From assembly GCF_057098645.1 (NCBI RefSeq), contig NZ_CM169472.1: 64,000 bases of DNA; one strand, given 5' to 3'. This document shows, piece after piece, positions 1 to 9,000 of the stretch (its first letter is position 1; every line of letters starts with the position of its first letter). The position numbers are program-made.

Positions 1-3000
1 CCGGCGGTTCCCCTTCTCCTTGCGTTGACGTCACCACGATAAGCAGTTTTTCGCTGGCGATTTGTTTGAATTTATAGTCGCCCGCGTTCACCAGCTTAAC
101 GTTCAGTTTTGCCGCTAATAAATCATCACGTAATGCTTCAGCAACCCGGCGCGCATTGCCGGTTTGCGAGGCGGAGATAATAGTTATACCCGGCATTTCT
201 GCGGCGGGAGCTGGCGTCGCTGCAAGCGCAGCAGGCTGCTGATTGAGCACGCCCCAGAAATAGCCAGAAACCCAGGCAAGCTGGGTGGGAGTTAAATCGG
301 TCGTGGCCGCCTGAAGGCGTGCCAGTTGCTCCGGGTTCAACGGAAGCAACGCGGAAGGTGGGACCTGTGTCGTCATGCGTCGTTATGTTCCAGTAAGCAA
401 AGCTGTTTCTGCGCCCTGTCAGCGCCCATAAAACAGAAGAGAAGGTAAGGTTAACGGGGTGAACGGTGTGGATTAAAGACGGGATAGCGATAACTAATAA
501 CCAAATCGACTAACCTGTTTTAGCAATAGTCTTTAACAACAAAATAGATTAACCAACCTAATGAAAAACAAATGAATTTAGCCAATCATTAAGATAAATC
601 AGCGATTTTGCGCAACAAAGTCGTTTTAGATAATGCGAAAAAACAGCCTTTCCGGTACTCTACGGCGGTTTTATCGTCCTGTAGAGAAATTATGATGTCC
701 ACCACGTTATTTAAAGATTTCACCTTCGAAGCCGCTCACCGCTTACCACACGTCCCGGAAGGGCATAAATGTGGTCGCCTGCACGGGCATTCCTTTATGG
801 TGCGACTGGAAATTACCGGGGAAGTCGATCCGCATACGGGCTGGATTATCGATTTCGCTGAACTGAAAGCAGCGTTTAAGCCAACTTATGAGCGCCTCGA
901 TCACCATTATCTCAATGATATTCCAGGCCTGGAAAACCCGACCAGCGAAGTTTTAGCAAAATGGATTTGGGATCAGGTTAAACCCGTTGTGCCGCTGTTA
1001 AGTGCGGTGATGGTAAAAGAAACCTGCACCGCTGGTTGTATCTATCGCGGCGAATGATAAGAGTGTGTCGGCGGTCAATTTCCCTTAAGTAACGCTATGT
1101 TAGGGTGTTGTGTTCTGGATATCTGGGGCATGACATGGAAGACGACTGCGACATTATTATTATTGGTGCCGGTATTGCAGGCACCGCTTGCGCGTTACGC
1201 TGCGCGCGAGCGGGTTTATCCGTTTTGTTACTGGAACGCGCTGAAATCCCCGGCAGCAAAAATCTTTCCGGCGGGCGGTTATATACCCATGCACTCGCGG
1301 AACTCCTCCCTCAGTTTCATCTGACCGCGCCTCTTGAACGACGCATCACTCACGAAAGCCTTTCCCTGTTAACGCCGGATTGCGCAACGACGTTTTCCAG
1401 CTTACAGCCCGGCGGTGAATCCTGGAGTGTATTACGTGCACGGTTCGATCCGTGGCTGGTTGCCGAAGCCGAAAAAGAAGGTGTCGAATGCATCCCTGGT
1501 GCGACGGTGGATGCACTGTATGAAGAAAACGGCAGGGTGTGTGGTGTCATTTGTGGTGACGATATTCTCCGCGCCCGTTATGTGGTGCTGGCAGAAGGTG
1601 CCAACAGCGTCCTGGCTGAACGTCACGGATTAGTGACTCGTCCTGCTGGCGAAGCGATGGCGTTGGGGATCAAAGAAGTGCTGTCGCTGGAAACATCCGC
1701 TATTGAAGAACGTTTTCATCTGGAGAATAACGAAGGCGCAGCGTTGCTGTTCAGCGGCGGGATCTGTGATGACTTACCCGGCGGCGCATTTCTTTATACT
1801 AATCAACAAACGCTCTCGTTAGGGATTGTTTGTCCACTCTCTTCCCTTACGCAAAGTCGTGTTCCGGCAAGCGAGCTGCTGGCTCGCTTTAAAACGTATC
1901 CGGCAGTGCGCCCGCTTATCAAAAACACGGAATCACTGGAGTATGGTGCGCATCTGGTGCCAGAAGGTGGCTTGCACAGTATGCCGGTGCAATACGCCGG
2001 TAACGGCTGGCTGCTGGTGGGCGATGCGTTGCGCAGTTGCGTCAATACCGGAATTTCCGTGCGCGGCATGGATATGGCGCTGACTGGCGCACAGGCGGCG
2101 GCACAAACGCTGATAAGCGCCTGCCAGCACCGCGAGCCGCAAAATCTGTTTCCGCTTTATCATCACAACGTCGAGCGCAGCCTGCTGTGGGATGTTCTAC
2201 AACGTTATCAGCATGTTCCGGCGCTTTTGCAACGCCCGGGATGGTACCGTGCGTGGCCTGCGTTAATGCAGGATATTTCCCGCGATTTATGGGATCAGGG
2301 TGATAAACCTGTTCCACCGCTGCGCCAGTTATTCTGGCGTCATTTACGTCGTCACGGCCTGTGGCATCTGGCGGGCGATGTTATCAGGAGTCTGCGATGT
2401 CTGTAGCCCGTAATCTCTGGCGCGTTGCTGATGCGCCGCACATTGTTCCGGCTGACTCCGTTGAGCGCCAGACGGCAGAACGGTTGATTAACGCCTGTCC
2501 GGCAGGTCTTTTTTCGCTCACACCAGAAGGTGACTTACGTATTGACTATCGCAGTTGCCTGGAGTGTGGCACCTGCCGTTTGCTGTGCGACGAATCAACA
2601 CTACAACAGTGGCGCTATCCGCCTTCCGGATTCGGCATCACCTACCGTTTTGGATAAATAATAAGGATAATTTATGCCCTTCTTACACCTGCTCCGCCAG
2701 AATCCGGTGATTGCTGCCGTTAAAGATAATGCCAGCCTGCAACTGGCTATCGATTCTGAATGCCAGTTTATTTCCGTGTTGTACGGCAATATCTGCACCA
2801 TCAGTAATATCGTTAAAAAGATTAAGAACGCCGGGAAATATGCTTTTATTCATGTCGATTTGCTGGAAGGCGCGTCAAATAAAGAAGTCGTGATTCAGTT
2901 TTTGAAACTGGTGACCGAGGCGGATGGAATTATCAGCACCAAAGCATCGATGCTAAAAGCGGCAAGAGCGGAAGGTTTTTTCTGTATTCATCGCCTGTTT

Positions 3001-6000: not shown

Positions 6001-9000
6001 AAAATGCGCAGCCCAATAAGATGCTCTGGCGTGGTGGCAAAAAATTGCAAGAACGAAGCGAGCGTAATCAGCAAAAAGCTGAAGGTGAAGATTTTTTGCC
6101 GACCAATATGGTCGGAGATCCACCCAAGAACCAGGCTGCCAAGAAACAAACCAAGGAGCGCCGAGCCGCCTATCATTCCCGCCATAAACGGCGTCAGTTG
6201 CATGGCGGGCGTAAGTTGAATAATGGCGTAACCAATGACGCCGAGAACATAACCGTCGGTCAGGTGTGCGCCGAAAGTGAGCGCAGCAATTCGACAGTGA
6301 AAACGGTTAAGCGGTAAATCATCCATTCGCACCGGTGAAGTGTTCATCTTTACCCCTTCATTGTCCGGTAATAAGAACGGCTTCTCGCCTGAGAAGCCGA
6401 AAAGGCAACGCCCCATCATCGCGGAACGCTGCCTGACACATTATTTTTCAATCGGATAGATAGTACCCGTATTCATAATGCCGTTAGGATCGAACTGCTT
6501 TTTCAGCCCTTCCAGCAACGCCCACGCGCTGCCGTGTTCCAGTTTGCTCCAGTGAACGCGATGTTTACCGATACCGTGGTGGTGCACCATCGAACCACCG
6601 AGGCGAATGGTTTCTTCGCAAATGATTTTGTTGAGCGGATTGTGGTACTTGTCGATTTCCTCTTCCGGCTTACAGTCAACAACGTTGTAATCGTAGACGA
6701 AGTACATGTTGGTGCCGTTCTGATAGCTATGAGAGGAATGACCGCCCAGCATGGTGATGTCGTCGGCGTGCGGGAACTCAGTACGAATACGGTTAATAAC
6801 GCTTTCGTAGATTTCGTGGATGCAGCTCCAGCAGCCGGACACTTCAGTGGTAAAGCCCATGTTGCCGGTTTTGAGGATTTGCACACGTTCGGCAGCCACT
6901 TTATCCGGTCCCCAGTTCAGGTTGTTAAACCAGGTTTCGATCAGTTTGCTGTCCACGCGCTGGCACTGCGGGTAGCGGGCAACGATTTCCGCAATCCCTT
7001 CGCCCGTCGCCTTCGCAATGCGAGGGTTACCTTCAGCCATAAAGATCAGCACACATTTTCCGTCGGCAAAATGGGTGAAGTGTTGGGTGCCATCTTCAGC
7101 GTCATACAAACGAGCGATCGACGGACGATACCCTTCCACCATGATTTCACGCAGGATGTTGAAGCCGGTTTTCATGTCTTCCAGGATATAGCCGTAGAAG
7201 AGGTTGTTTTCCGGGGTGAATTTAAAGATTTTCACTGTTACTTCAGTGATATAGCACAATGCACCTTCGTTGCCGATGATGATGTGACGAATGTCCGGGC
7301 CAGCCGCGCGGCGTGGCACGTTTTTAATACGTGTGACGGTGCCATCAGCCAATACGGCTTCCAGACCAACGACCATATCTTCGATTGCGCCGTAGAGTGT
7401 GGAGAACTGCCCGATACTGCGGGTTGCTACCAGGCCGCCCATCTGCGCCAGCGGCTTTGACTGCGGAGAATGCCCCGTGGTGTAACCTTTTTCACGCAAC
7501 GCGTTTTCCAGCACTTCCAGCGGAACACCACATTGCGCCGTCGCCTGCATATTCTCAATATCAATATTAATGATTTGATTCATGGCGGAGCCGTCGAGCA
7601 CCACCGAGTTTTCTACAACAGTTTCCAGCCCACCTTCGGTGGCGGAAGCACCGGTACGCGGCACACCGTTAATTTTGTGCGCATTCATAAAATTCAGCAC
7701 ACGGGAGACTTGTTCTGTGGAACCGAGTTTTACGACCGCAGCCGGAATCGGCAAAGTATAAATACCATGAATATCCGGAAATTTACGAAAACGGTCAATA
7801 CTGTTCTTCTTTAATACTGTTTTATCGGTAATTACGCGATCTGCACCAAAAATTTCCTTTAGCTGGTCGACAATCGCTGCGCGAGATAAAGACATAGTAA
7901 TTCCTTCCTGATAATAAAAATGGAATAATCATTAATAAGAGAAAACAGAAACCACCGTTATGGGTTAGCGCACTAAATAACCGCCATCAACCACTAATAA
8001 ATGCCCGTTGACATAATTCGATGCCGGACTTGCGAGGAATACAGCTGCGCCCATTAAATCCTGAGTATCGCCCCAACGGTTTGCCGGAATATGATCAAGA
8101 ACGCGCTGATTGGTTTCTGGATTACTGCGTGTCGCCAGCGTAATATCTGTTGCATAATAGCCAGGGGCGATACCATTTACATGAATATTATATTGCCCTA
8201 ATTCATCACAATAAGCTTTGGTGAATCCGGCAAGAGCATGTTTAGTGGCAGAATATGCGGGTGACCATTGTCCACCTAAGTAAGAGAACAATGAACAGAT
8301 ATTAATAATTTTACCGCTTTTCTGCGGGATCATAATTTTTGCCGCTTCGTAGCTTAACTCGAATGCGGCGGTCAGGTTCACATCAATCATCGGGTCCCAG
8401 TCGGCTCGACCAAAGTCCAGCACCTTATTTAGCTTACAAATACCGGCATTGTTAACCAGAATATCAACTGTTCCGAAACGCTCACAGCAAGCAGCGATTA
8501 TCTTCTGCGGCGCGCCTTCTGCGGTGATATCCACCTGCATGAAGTCCACCTCAACACCCTGATTTTCAATCATTTCCTTTGTTTCGCCGTTATCTTTGAC
8601 AAAACTTGGAATAAAGACATTTGCGCCTGCTTTGGCCAACGCCATGGCAAATGCCTGGCCTAAACCGCTATTCCCGCCGGTAACAATTGCGGTTTTACCT
8701 TTCAGGGAGAAAAAATCCATTGAGAACGCATTGAGAGATTCGATTGACATAGTTAGCTCCAATTTCCGTAAGGCAAAAAAAAAGAAAGGTAACTTCCCCC
8801 GCGAGAGGGAAGTTACCTTTCTCATTATCTCTGGTAACTGGAGATAATTTTTAGCATAAGGACATAACTGCTAATGTGATCGTAATCACAGTGTGATATT
8901 CGTATTGTCAAATAATTTTAAAAAGCAGAAGCGTGATTACTCTCACACAACACCTCTGCTTTCCATGTTATTTATTATTTCAATTACTAGAGACCTGAGA

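What the first reader, a model, noticed from the sequence alone, without database searches (positions are those of the whole stretch)
2397..6347. Tight overlaps at ygcN/ygcO and ygcQ/ygcR/ygcS junctions imply translational coupling of the ETF components with a transporter
ygcO starts 10 nt before the ygcN stop, the ygcQ start overlaps the ygcR stop in an ATGA, and the ygcR start lies about 23 nt inside the 3' end of ygcS. This coupling implies the ETF subunits and the MFS permease are made in fixed stoichiometry, which is unusual for a transporter/ETF combination.
Basis: seen in the sequence. Interest (0 to 1): 0.3.

Follow-up and report, generated by a model that had tools for sequence, protein, structure and literature searches.

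The report
Ordinary gene overlaps in ygc operons
Three short gene overlaps in the E. coli ygc gene cluster are real and conserved, but they are ordinary operon features already in published tables and do not show that a transporter and its neighbouring flavoproteins are made in fixed amounts.

Summary
The window is E. coli chromosome, 100% identical over the 7.3 kb tested to O145:H28 strains. All three overlaps exist exactly as described: ygcN/ygcO 10 nt, ygcR/ygcQ ATGA (4 nt), ygcS/ygcR 23 nt. RefSeq and K-12 annotations agree. The geometry is identical in 15 loci compared, down to 48% YgcR identity, and each downstream start keeps a Shine-Dalgarno (SD) sequence.

They are not unusual. In this window 9 of 38 co-directional gene pairs overlap. 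Huber et al. 2023 already tabulate these pairs (-10, -4, -23) and report that about 70% of tightly spaced E. coli pairs encode no complex.

Coupling is plausible for ygcR/ygcQ (ETF beta/alpha heterodimer, classic -4) and for ygcN/ygcO (FixC/FixX-type pair; that COG pair has a median near -4, and fixC/fixX and ydiS/ydiT are both -4).

The transporter junction does not support fixed stoichiometry:
- A -23 overlap lies outside the range where coupling is efficient.
- ygcR has the strongest SD in the cluster and an accessible ribosome-binding site, favouring independent initiation.
- The ygcS stop falls inside the conserved Phe-Lys codons of ygcR.
- The paralogous transporter gene yaaU sits 56 nt after fixX.

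Verdict: observation confirmed, interpretation partly supported, already known, low interest.

The parts
1135..2406 (+). ygcN, a FixC/YdiS-type FAD oxidoreductase (ETF-quinone-oxidoreductase-like), 423 aa, stop TAG at 2404-2406
   Evidence: It is 41-42% identical to FixC/YdiS over the full length.
2386..2390 (+). AGGAG Shine-Dalgarno sequence of ygcO, inside ygcN, 6 nt before the ATG
   Evidence: Read from the sequence. SD/anti-SD energy is -6.9 kcal/mol. The motif is invariant in 15 of 15 loci that carry the junction.
2397..2406 (+). ygcN/ygcO 10-nt overlap (ATGTCTGTAG)
   Evidence: The same 10-nt overlap occurs in all orthologues, with TAG/TAA exchange while residue 4 of YgcO varies A/T/N.
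2397..2657 (+). ygcO, a FixX/YdiT-type ferredoxin-like protein, 86 aa. The protein contains no other Met, so 2397 is the only ATG start.
2674..3249 (+). ygcP, a GlpP-like antiterminator (G3P_antiterm), 16 nt after ygcO
   Evidence: (E 1.4e-62)
3396..4256 (-). ygcQ, ETF alpha/FixB-type subunit, 286 aa
   Evidence: The alternative upstream ATG at 4289 has no SD (-0.4 kcal/mol) and is not conserved (CTG in L012).
4253..4256 (-). ygcR/ygcQ ATGA start-stop overlap (-4)
   Evidence: It is invariant in all 16 loci, although codon 2 of ygcQ varies (AAT, AAG, AAA, ACG, AGA) while always starting with A.
4264..4268 (-). AAGGA Shine-Dalgarno sequence of ygcQ, inside ygcR, 7 nt before the ATG
   Evidence: -5.4 kcal/mol. 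(A/G)AGG is kept in 15 of 16 loci; L013 has CAGGA.
4253..5032 (-). ygcR, ETF beta/FixA-type subunit, 259 aa
   Evidence: The N-terminus MNILLAFKAEPD aligns from residue 1 with FixA MKIITCYKCVPD and YdiQ MKIITCFKLVPE.
5010..5032 (-). ygcS/ygcR 23-nt overlap (ATGAACATTCTGTTAGCGTTTAA). The ygcS stop TAA is formed by ygcR codons 7-8 (TTT AAA = Phe-Lys).
   Evidence: The first 14 nt are invariant in 11 of 11 loci.
5037..5043 (-). AGGAGGT Shine-Dalgarno sequence of ygcR, inside the ygcS tail, 4 nt before the ATG; the strongest SD in the cluster
   Evidence: -11.5 kcal/mol; mean -10.0 across 11 orthologues, accessibility 0.54. An SD is kept although the encoded YgcS tail varies.
5010..6347 (-). ygcS, an MFS sugar-porter-type permease, 445 aa with the K-12 start at 6347. 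The PGAP start at 6419 is probably wrong.
   Evidence: Sugar_tr, 180 bits. The motif GAAGGGG-N5-ATG is conserved in most genera compared, and the intergenic region is only 52-61 nt in five of the six non-Escherichia loci. SD energy is -8.0 at 6347 against -3.4 at 6419.
6348..6440 (-). ygcU-ygcS intergenic region with two terminator-like hairpins. The distal one, 6399..6378, is conserved across genera.
   Evidence: z -3.6; 3 of 9 pairs show compensatory changes
6441..7895 (-). ygcU, a FAD-linked oxidase (GlcD/LctD/alkyl-DHAP-synthase-like), upstream gene of the same strand

Best explanation
These are ordinary operon junctions in a cryptic catabolic gene island of Enterobacterales, lying between queD and queE. 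The island comprises ygcN-O-P on one strand, ygcW-U-S-R-Q on the other, and yqcE-ygcE transcribed divergently from ygcW.

Shown: the three overlaps are real, the start codons are correct, and the geometry and the SD motifs are conserved.

Inferred, junction by junction:
1. ygcR/ygcQ (ATGA, -4) is a classic termination-reinitiation junction. It helps produce the ETF beta and alpha subunits together.
2. ygcN/ygcO (-10) is a slightly lengthened version of the -4 junction typical of FixC/FixX pairs. It is probably still partly coupled.
3. ygcS/ygcR (-23) is a 'long phase-1 overlap'. It exists because the first in-frame stop of ygcS falls inside the conserved Phe-Lys codons of the ETF-beta N-terminus. 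ygcR is translated mainly by fresh initiation at its own very strong, accessible SD. Ribosomes finishing ygcS help at most by keeping the site unfolded.

The transporter and the ETF are therefore co-transcribed but not held at a fixed ratio.
For: - Geometry and starts. Conservation of -10/-4/-23 in all loci compared.
- In the ygcR frame, codons 5-12 show synonymous variation while the peptide MNILLAFKAEPD is kept. These codons are therefore translated and the overlap is real.
- Protein identities: Pfam ETF and ETF_alpha, solved ETF heterodimers, and FixC/FixX identity of 40-48%.
- Paralogue junctions: fixC/fixX -4, ydiS/ydiT -4, fixA/B +14, ydiQ/R +19, fixX/yaaU +56.
- Published COG-pair medians: FixC@FixX -3.3, FixA@FixB +11 with lower quartile -1.
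- Literature on spacing: coupling is best at -4..+3, declines with overlap, and is absent at -25. Long overlaps typically arise by stop-codon loss 'without translational coupling', and phase-1 overlaps (-8, -11 and so on, a series that includes -23) are retained because they cannot easily shorten.
- SD strengths and accessibility.
- Base rate of overlaps.
Against: - No expression data were available for these genes. The ribosome-profiling and proteome papers I asked for are not held.
- The -23 geometry and the first 14 nt of ygcR are invariant across genera. This could reflect selection on a coupling device rather than dual-coding constraint alone.
- Long-overlap coupling does exist in nature, for example MS2 coat/lysis at -50.
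- RNA-accessibility predictions are weak evidence.
Confidence: 0.8

Rival explanations
1. All three junctions are tightly translationally coupled, so the MFS permease YgcS and the ETF subunits are produced in fixed stoichiometry, implying a physical or functional transporter-ETF unit.
For: Overlaps and SDs are conserved across genera. The overlap nucleotides are invariant. Tight pairs are enriched 4.5-fold for complex subunits in E. coli. A paralogous MFS (YaaU) also sits next to a Fix-type ETF cluster.
Against: A -23 overlap is outside the efficient coupling range. ygcR has a strong, accessible SD. The yaaU-fixX spacing is +56. 69.6% of tight pairs encode no complex. Coupled pairs need not be equimolar. 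There is no evidence of any MFS-ETF complex.
Confidence: 0.06
2. ygcR translation depends strongly on ygcS translation through back-scanning reinitiation or ribosome-driven unfolding, as at long-overlap junctions such as MS2 coat/lysis. This would not set a 1:1 ratio. It would make ETF synthesis conditional on transporter translation.
For: The geometry is invariant and the first four ygcR codons show no synonymous change. A GC-rich hairpin lies immediately upstream of the SD in E. coli. Precedents for long-overlap coupling exist.
Against: The predicted RBS accessibility of ygcR matches that of leading genes (0.54 vs 0.53-0.60). The upstream sequence is not conserved between genera. Synthetic series show loss of coupling at -25.
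Confidence: 0.12
3. The overlaps are annotation artefacts. The true starts of ygcO, ygcR or ygcQ lie downstream, which would remove the overlaps.
For: Starts have not been mapped experimentally. PGAP and K-12 already disagree on the ygcS start.
Against: The ATG and SD are conserved at all three starts in the 15-16 loci that carry each junction. The YgcR N-terminal peptide is conserved with synonymous changes and aligns from residue 1 with FixA/YdiQ. YgcO has no other Met. The upstream alternatives lack SDs.
Confidence: 0.03

Closest known systems
E. coli fixABCX-yaaU cluster (next to the caiTABCDE carnitine operon)
   Same: It holds the same four protein types (ETF beta, ETF alpha, FixC-type oxidoreductase, FixX-type ferredoxin) plus a paralogous MFS permease. 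YaaU is 35% identical to YgcS. YgcN is 41% identical to FixC and YgcO 48% to FixX. The FixC/FixX genes overlap.
   Different: All fix genes lie on one strand in the order beta-alpha-C-X-MFS. Spacings are +14, +50, -4 and +56. The permease is last and well separated, rather than first and overlapping ETF beta by 23 nt. YgcR is only weakly similar to FixA (31% over 90 aa).
E. coli ydiQRST (the second Fix-like ETF set)
   Same: It has the ETF beta/alpha plus FixC/FixX-type arrangement, and ydiS/ydiT overlap by 4 nt. YgcN is 42% identical to YdiS.
   Different: ydiQ/ydiR are 19 nt apart rather than overlapping. No permease gene is directly attached. ydiT is followed at +2 by fadK.
Experimentally coupled -4 (ATGA) gene pairs of E. 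coli (hyfH-hyfI, astD-astB, ydbH-ynbE, menD-menH; Huber et al. 2019, PMC6728339)
   Same: ygcR/ygcQ has the same ATGA overlap, with an SD inside the upstream gene.
   Different: Coupling at the ygc junctions has not been tested. ygcN/ygcO (-10) and ygcS/ygcR (-23) fall outside the -8..+10 class those authors treat as predictive.
Long overlaps as described by Huber et al. 2023 (PMC10666635)
   Same: ygcS/ygcR at -23 belongs to the phase-1 series (-8, -11, -14 and so on). These are described as arising from upstream stop loss, typically without coupling, and are retained because they cannot shorten to -4 or -1. ygcN/ygcO at -10 belongs to the rarer phase-2 series. Both pairs are listed in their Supplementary Table 2.
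   Different: Here the long overlaps are evolutionarily stable across genera. That paper does not address this for these particular pairs.
LctBCD-type dehydrogenase-ETF complexes (PDB 7QH2)
   Same: YgcU, YgcR and YgcQ match LctD, LctB and LctC respectively at the sequence level. This suggests that a FAD-linked dehydrogenase feeds an ETF.
   Different: Similarity is distant. YgcQ lacks the ferredoxin-domain extension of LctC (286 aa vs 418 aa). The ygc cluster additionally has FixC/FixX-type proteins, pointing to quinone rather than ferredoxin chemistry. None of this was tested here.

Membership tests
Translationally coupled (termination-reinitiation) gene pair | Co-directional neighbours on one transcript | tested here: inconclusive
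   The genes share a strand and are adjacent, and the overlap leaves no room for a terminator or promoter. Co-transcription itself was not measured. A weak RpoE SELEX peak inside ygcR is reported.
Translationally coupled (termination-reinitiation) gene pair | Stop/start spacing within the efficient range (-8 to +10 per Huber 2023; best at -4 to +3) | tested here: not met
   ygcR/ygcQ at -4 meets it. ygcN/ygcO at -10 is just outside. ygcS/ygcR at -23 is well outside. The feature is therefore met for one of the three junctions and not for the transporter junction.
Translationally coupled (termination-reinitiation) gene pair | SD for the downstream gene located inside the upstream ORF | tested here: met
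   AGGAG for ygcO, AAGGA for ygcQ and AGGAGGT for ygcR. All are largely conserved in orthologues.
Translationally coupled (termination-reinitiation) gene pair | Downstream translation depends on upstream translation at constant mRNA level | not testable with these tools
   This needs reporter fusions with premature stop codons, or ribosome profiling.
Electron transfer flavoprotein alpha/beta heterodimer | Beta subunit with an ETF domain; alpha subunit with an ETF domain plus the ETF_alpha FAD-binding domain | tested here: met
   YgcR matches PF01012 (E 1e-16). YgcQ matches PF00766 (E 1e-17) and weakly PF01012. Both match the subunits of solved ETFs 1EFP, 1EFV, 5OW0 and 7QH2.
FixC/FixX (ETF-quinone-oxidoreductase-like flavoprotein plus ferredoxin-like protein) | Full-length homology to FixC/YdiS and FixX/YdiT | tested here: met
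   YgcN is 41-42% identical over 428 aa. YgcO is 40-48% identical. The Pfam ETFQO_UQ-bd hit is just under its cut-off (26.7 vs 27.7 bits).
MFS sugar-porter-type permease | Sugar_tr/MFS_1 domain over the whole protein | tested here: met
   YgcS matches PF00083 at 180 bits and PF07690 at 136 bits.
Heteromeric transporter-ETF complex (implied by 'fixed stoichiometry') | Physical association or equimolar synthesis of YgcS with YgcR/YgcQ | not testable with these tools
   No supporting data were found in the literature searched. The paralogous fixX/yaaU spacing of +56 argues against a family-wide requirement.

The most novel reading that the evidence does not exclude
The 23-nt ygcS/ygcR overlap is absolutely invariant from Escherichia to Mixta-like genomes. 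It combines no synonymous change in ygcR codons 2-4 and 7 with the strongest SD of the cluster. The most novel reading is that this is a selected device making ETF-beta synthesis conditional on translation of the permease, whose translating ribosomes are expected to be at the membrane. The ETF would then be assembled next to the membrane, where its FixC/FixX-type acceptor and the imported substrate are. This would be a functional transporter-ETF linkage rather than passive dual-coding constraint.
Probability: 0.08. Interest if true: 0.35.

Novelty: already known. Interest (0 to 1): 0.1.

Why it matters
It matters little. The overlaps are part of the reference annotation and are already listed, with these exact distances, in a published genome-wide table (Huber et al. 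2023, Supplementary Table 2). Their form is typical for ETF and FixC/FixX genes.

The useful outcomes are corrective:
- Overlap length matters. -4 is not equivalent to -23, so an overlap alone should not be read as evidence of stoichiometric co-production with a transporter.
- The RefSeq/PGAP start of ygcS in this strain (469 aa) is probably 72 nt too far upstream.

The more interesting biology nearby is the set of conserved leader terminators that may be targets of the GlpP-like protein YgcP. That is separate from this finding.

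Tried and rejected
1. Direct expression evidence was sought and not found. Li et al. 2014 (PMC4006352) and Schmidt et al. 2016 (PMC4888949) are not held. Full-text searches for the ygc genes found no functional or translational study. The only protein-level mention is YgcR detected on 2D gels after MazF induction, which says nothing about coupling.
2. One apparent 'ygcR' paper (PMC10998600) was a false hit on mathematical notation.
3. The promoter/terminator consensus scan gave no convincing internal promoter for ygcR or ygcQ. Promoter-like sites were fewer than in shuffles.
4. Rfam found nothing relevant in 1..12500, only a sub-threshold REP/naRNA4-like hit and a spurious snoRNA hit.
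5. A programmed frameshift producing a YgcS-YgcR fusion was considered. The TTTAAAG heptamer at the ygcS stop is in the wrong frame for -1 slippage, and there is no prfB-like context. The MFS-YgcR 'fusion' proteins in databases (P0087, P0090) are internal deletions in Shigella-type sequences joined at an LLAE repeat, not read-through at the junction.
6. RNA folding of the junctions (-99..+30) gave only modest differences. I treat it as weak evidence.
7. The genome-contig scan with YgcR returned only 7 loci. Wider sampling came from the look-up of encoding contigs.

Full report
IDENTITY OF THE REGION. Window 900-8200 is 100% identical to E. coli O145:H28 and related strains, and matches 5425 of 5426 complete E. 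coli genomes at least in part. Annotation of the identical record and of K-12 MG1655 gives the following genes:
- ygcN + 1135..2406
- ygcO + 2397..2657
- ygcP + 2674..3249
- ygcQ - 3396..4256
- ygcR - 4253..5032
- ygcS - 5010..6347 (K-12) or ..6419 (PGAP)
- ygcU - 6441..7895

Pfam assignments:
- YgcN is a FAD oxidoreductase with a near-threshold ETF-QO ubiquinone-binding hit.
- YgcO is a 4Fe-4S ferredoxin-like protein.
- YgcP is a GlpP-type antiterminator.
- YgcQ is ETF alpha and YgcR is ETF beta.
- YgcS is a sugar-porter MFS.
- YgcU is a FAD-linked oxidase.

BLAST against the K-12 paralogues shows YgcN 41-42% identical to FixC/YdiS, YgcO 40-48% to FixX/YdiT, and YgcQ about 30% to YdiR/FixB. 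YgcR is only weakly similar to FixA. YgcR and YgcQ match the two subunits of solved ETF heterodimers. ygcN and ygcO are therefore partners of the ETF (FixC/FixX type), not ETF subunits.

Read directly from the sequence:
- The ygcO ATG is at 2397 and the ygcN TAG ends at 2406, a 10-nt overlap.
- On the minus strand, ATGA occupies 4256..4253, so the ygcQ start overlaps the ygcR stop.
- The ygcR ATG at 5032 lies 23 nt inside ygcS, whose TAA is at 5012..5010.

Both independent annotations agree.

THE STARTS ARE RIGHT.
- Each downstream ATG is preceded by an SD inside the upstream gene. AGGAG lies 6 nt before ygcO, AAGGA lies 7 nt before ygcQ, and AGGAGGT lies 4 nt before ygcR.
- Alternative upstream starts (ygcQ 4289, ygcR GTG 5038, ygcS 6419) have weak or no SD.
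- YgcO contains no other methionine.
- YgcR's N-terminus MNILLAFKAEPD aligns from residue 1 with FixA MKIITCYKCVPD and YdiQ MKIITCFKLVPE.
- In orthologues that peptide is kept while codons 5-12 change synonymously. These codons are therefore translated.

CONSERVATION. I collected 15 related loci: K-12, E. albertii, E. whittamii, three divergent Escherichia lineages, Raoultella terrigena, Citrobacter sedlakii, three assemblies from public sequencing runs and one metagenome contig with YgcR identity of 48-63%. The whole island is syntenic between queD/cysJ and queE. The -4 and -23 junctions are kept in every locus. The -10 junction is kept in every locus that has ygcN/ygcO; one locus lacks both genes.
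- At ygcR/ygcQ, codon 2 of ygcQ varies (AAT, AAG, AAA, ACG, AGA) but always begins with A, which preserves ATGA.
- At ygcN/ygcO, the stop switches between TAG and TAA while YgcO residue 4 changes (A/T/N).
- At ygcS/ygcR, the stop TAA is formed by ygcR codons 7-8 (TTT AAR, Phe-Lys). This is the conserved [F/Y]-K of the first beta strand of ETF beta.
- The first 14 nt of ygcR are invariant. Upstream of them the YgcS tail varies in sequence and length (443-451 aa), yet an SD is always present.
- The S/R junction is present in 5095 of 5426 complete E. coli genomes.
- All genes are under purifying selection, with dN/dS of 0.01-0.39.

IS THIS MORE THAN CHANCE? No.
- In the PGAP annotation of this 64-kb window, 9 of 38 co-directional pairs overlap. 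These are -1 four times, -4 twice, and -8, -10 and -23 once each. With base rates of 0.15-0.24, P(at least 3 of the 7 ygc junctions overlap) is 0.07-0.22.
- Huber et al. 2023 count 707 of 2,987 E. coli unidirectional pairs (24%) at -8..+6. They report that 69.6% of pairs at -8..+10 encode no known complex.
- Their Supplementary Table 2 already lists ygcN-ygcO -10, ygcR-ygcQ -4, ygcS-ygcR -23 and ygcU-ygcS +93.
- Their COG-pair table gives FixC@FixX a median of -3.3 (quartiles -4/+1.6, 224 species) and FixA@FixB a median of +11 (lower quartile -1, 1,661 species).
- In K-12, fixC/fixX and ydiS/ydiT overlap by 4 nt. fixA/fixB and ydiQ/ydiR are 14 and 19 nt apart.

The N/O overlap is thus a small variant of a family-typical junction. 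The R/Q overlap sits at the tight end of the normal ETF range.

WHAT THE OVERLAPS IMPLY.
- Literature summarised by Brown & Wade 2025: coupling is most efficient at -4 to +3 nt. Increasing overlap reduces it more than increasing spacing does. In the Tian & Salis series coupling vanished at -25 nt.
- Huber 2023: long overlaps typically arise by loss of the upstream stop 'without translational coupling'. Phase-1 overlaps (-8, -11, -14 and so on, a series that includes -23) persist because they cannot shorten to -4 or -1. -10 belongs to the rarer phase-2 class that can shorten to -4, as the fix and ydi paralogues show.
- Huber 2019: four of five tested E. coli ATGA pairs were coupled. In E. coli an intragenic SD can also drive de novo initiation unless masked, and downstream products can exceed upstream ones several-fold.
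- My calculations: ygcR has the strongest SD of the cluster (-11.5 kcal/mol; mean -10.0 in 11 orthologues). Its predicted RBS accessibility is 0.54, equal to the leading genes ygcW (0.53) and ygcS (0.60). The ygcQ and ygcO sites are weaker (-6.7 and -7.1) and less accessible (0.45 and 0.41).

This pattern fits coupling at R/Q and, less surely, at N/O. It fits largely independent initiation at ygcR.

THE 'UNUSUAL TRANSPORTER/ETF COMBINATION'. The fix cluster of E. coli is followed by yaaU, an MFS permease 35% identical to YgcS over its full length (E 3e-86), 56 nt after fixX. A permease of this subfamily next to a Fix-type ETF system is therefore not unique to ygc, and tight spacing is not a feature of the pairing. 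In this same window the membrane-protein gene ygdD overlaps the downstream rRNA methyltransferase gene rlmM by 8 nt, and the transporter gene gudP ends 1 nt before gudX. Tight membrane/soluble junctions are commonplace and carry no stoichiometric meaning.

MOST LIKELY MECHANISM.
- Shown: the geometry, the starts, the SDs, their conservation and the protein families.
- Inferred: ribosomes terminating at the ygcR TGA reinitiate at the overlapping ygcQ AUG, helping equimolar production of the ETF heterodimer. ygcN/ygcO behave similarly but less efficiently. ygcR is loaded mainly de novo at its strong SD, and ribosomes finishing ygcS at most keep that site open.
- Co-regulation of permease and ETF is transcriptional. 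They share a strand downstream of a conserved terminator-like hairpin between ygcU and ygcS.
- Confidence is about 0.8. The residual uncertainty is whether the invariant -23 junction has a regulatory role.

SIDE OBSERVATIONS.
- The ygcW and yqcE leaders each contain a strong terminator hairpin followed by U8-9, preceded by a shared box TTACYAGAGA. That box occurs exactly only at these two places in the window, one on each sense strand. It can pair with the 5' arm of the terminator.
- The 318-nt intergenic region holds long, almost invariant blocks across genera whose coding synonymous sites are saturated.
- Together with the highly conserved GlpP-like YgcP (96-97% identical between E. coli and Citrobacter/Raoultella), this suggests an antitermination regulon. 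No Rfam family matches.
- The ETF/Fix genes evolve 3-15 times faster at non-synonymous sites than ygcU, ygcW, ygcP and ygcS.

VERDICT. The feature is already known and of low interest.

Noticed in passing
window 8751..8860 (minus strand, ygcW leader) and 8965..9068 (plus strand, yqcE leader): Both divergent leaders carry a strong intrinsic-terminator hairpin. The ygcW leader has a 19-bp stem at 8823..8782 followed by U9 (fold z -6.2). The yqcE leader has a hairpin followed by U8 (z -3.6). Each is preceded by a shared box TTACYAGAGA, whose only exact matches in the window are at 8828-8837 (minus) and 8984-8993 (plus). The box can pair with the 5' arm of the terminator, giving an antiterminator alternative. 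The terminator and box blocks of the region are almost invariant in 12 loci despite saturated dS in flanking genes. No Rfam family matches. These are plausible targets of the GlpP-like antiterminator YgcP (2674..3249).
   Followed up: partly
window 6348..6440 (minus strand, ygcU-ygcS intergenic): The region holds two terminator-like hairpins. The distal one (6399..6378, CGGCUUCUC-loop-GAGAAGCCG followed by a U-rich tract) is conserved in all genera, with compensatory changes in 3 of 9 pairs. The proximal 13-bp hairpin is found only in the Escherichia loci among those compared. ygcS-R-Q may therefore be a separately attenuated sub-unit of the ygcW operon.
   Followed up: partly
window 6347 vs 6419 (ygcS start): RefSeq/PGAP annotates ygcS as 469 aa starting at 6419. 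That start lies inside the Escherichia-specific hairpin, has a weak SD (-3.4 kcal/mol), and has no counterpart in the five non-Escherichia loci whose intergenic region is only 52-61 nt. The K-12 start at 6347 is preceded by GAAGGGG-N5, a motif conserved in most genera compared, and is much more likely correct.
   Followed up: yes
window 1135..8750 compared with L005, L010, L011, L012: Evolutionary rates differ strongly within the island. Between E. coli and Citrobacter/Raoultella, YgcP is 96-97% identical, YgcU 92-93% and YgcS 87-89%. By contrast YgcN is 74-77%, YgcR 71-72%, YgcO 67-69% and YgcQ 57-61% identical. dN/dS of the four ETF/Fix genes is 3-15 times that of their neighbours, though still below 0.4.
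   Followed up: partly
L003 11808..13139 (K-12 yaaU) vs window 5010..6347: YaaU, the MFS gene directly after fixX, is a full-length paralogue of YgcS (35% identity, E 3e-86). Two of the three Fix-type ETF sets of E. coli thus have a permease of the same subfamily attached, hinting at an old functional association. I did not check whether they are each other's closest paralogues.
   Followed up: partly
L015 8612..9597 (JGI metagenome contig): In one orthologous island ygcN and ygcO are absent and ygcP is followed directly by queD, while ygcS-R-Q are intact with the same overlaps. The ETF is kept without its FixC/FixX-type partner.
   Followed up: no
proteins P0087, P0090, P0016: Database proteins fusing parts of YgcS and YgcR (one is named as from Shigella flexneri) result from internal deletions joined at an LLAE repeat. 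P0016 is a frameshifted YgcR-YgcQ fusion. These are signs of decay of the cluster in some lineages. In addition, about 330 of 5426 complete E. coli genomes lack the S/R junction.
   Followed up: partly
window 8866..8881 and 8926..8941 (yqcE-ygcW intergenic, approximate): Two conserved CRP-like palindromes (TGTGATTACGATCACA and TGTGAGAGTAATCACG) lie between the two leaders. This is consistent with earlier papers whose full text mentions the ygcW/yqcE pair, including a TF-site scan that used cross-species evidence (PhyloScan) and the ETEC study. I did not read their passages on this region.
   Followed up: no
window 3288..3348 (between convergent ygcP and ygcQ): A REP-type palindromic element gives a sub-threshold naRNA4 hit (29.8 bits vs 59.5 gathering). 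In other genera this spacer is absent, and ygcQ and ygcP overlap at their 3' ends by 4-11 nt.
   Followed up: no
window 6441..7895 with 3396..5032: YgcU (FAD_binding_4 plus FAD-oxidase_C) matches alkyl-DHAP synthase, glycolate oxidase and LctD, and YgcR/YgcQ match LctB/LctC of PDB 7QH2. The island may encode a dehydrogenase-ETF-FixCX electron path for an unknown imported substrate, with YgcS/YqcE as permeases, YgcE as an FGGY kinase and YgcW as an SDR.
   Followed up: no
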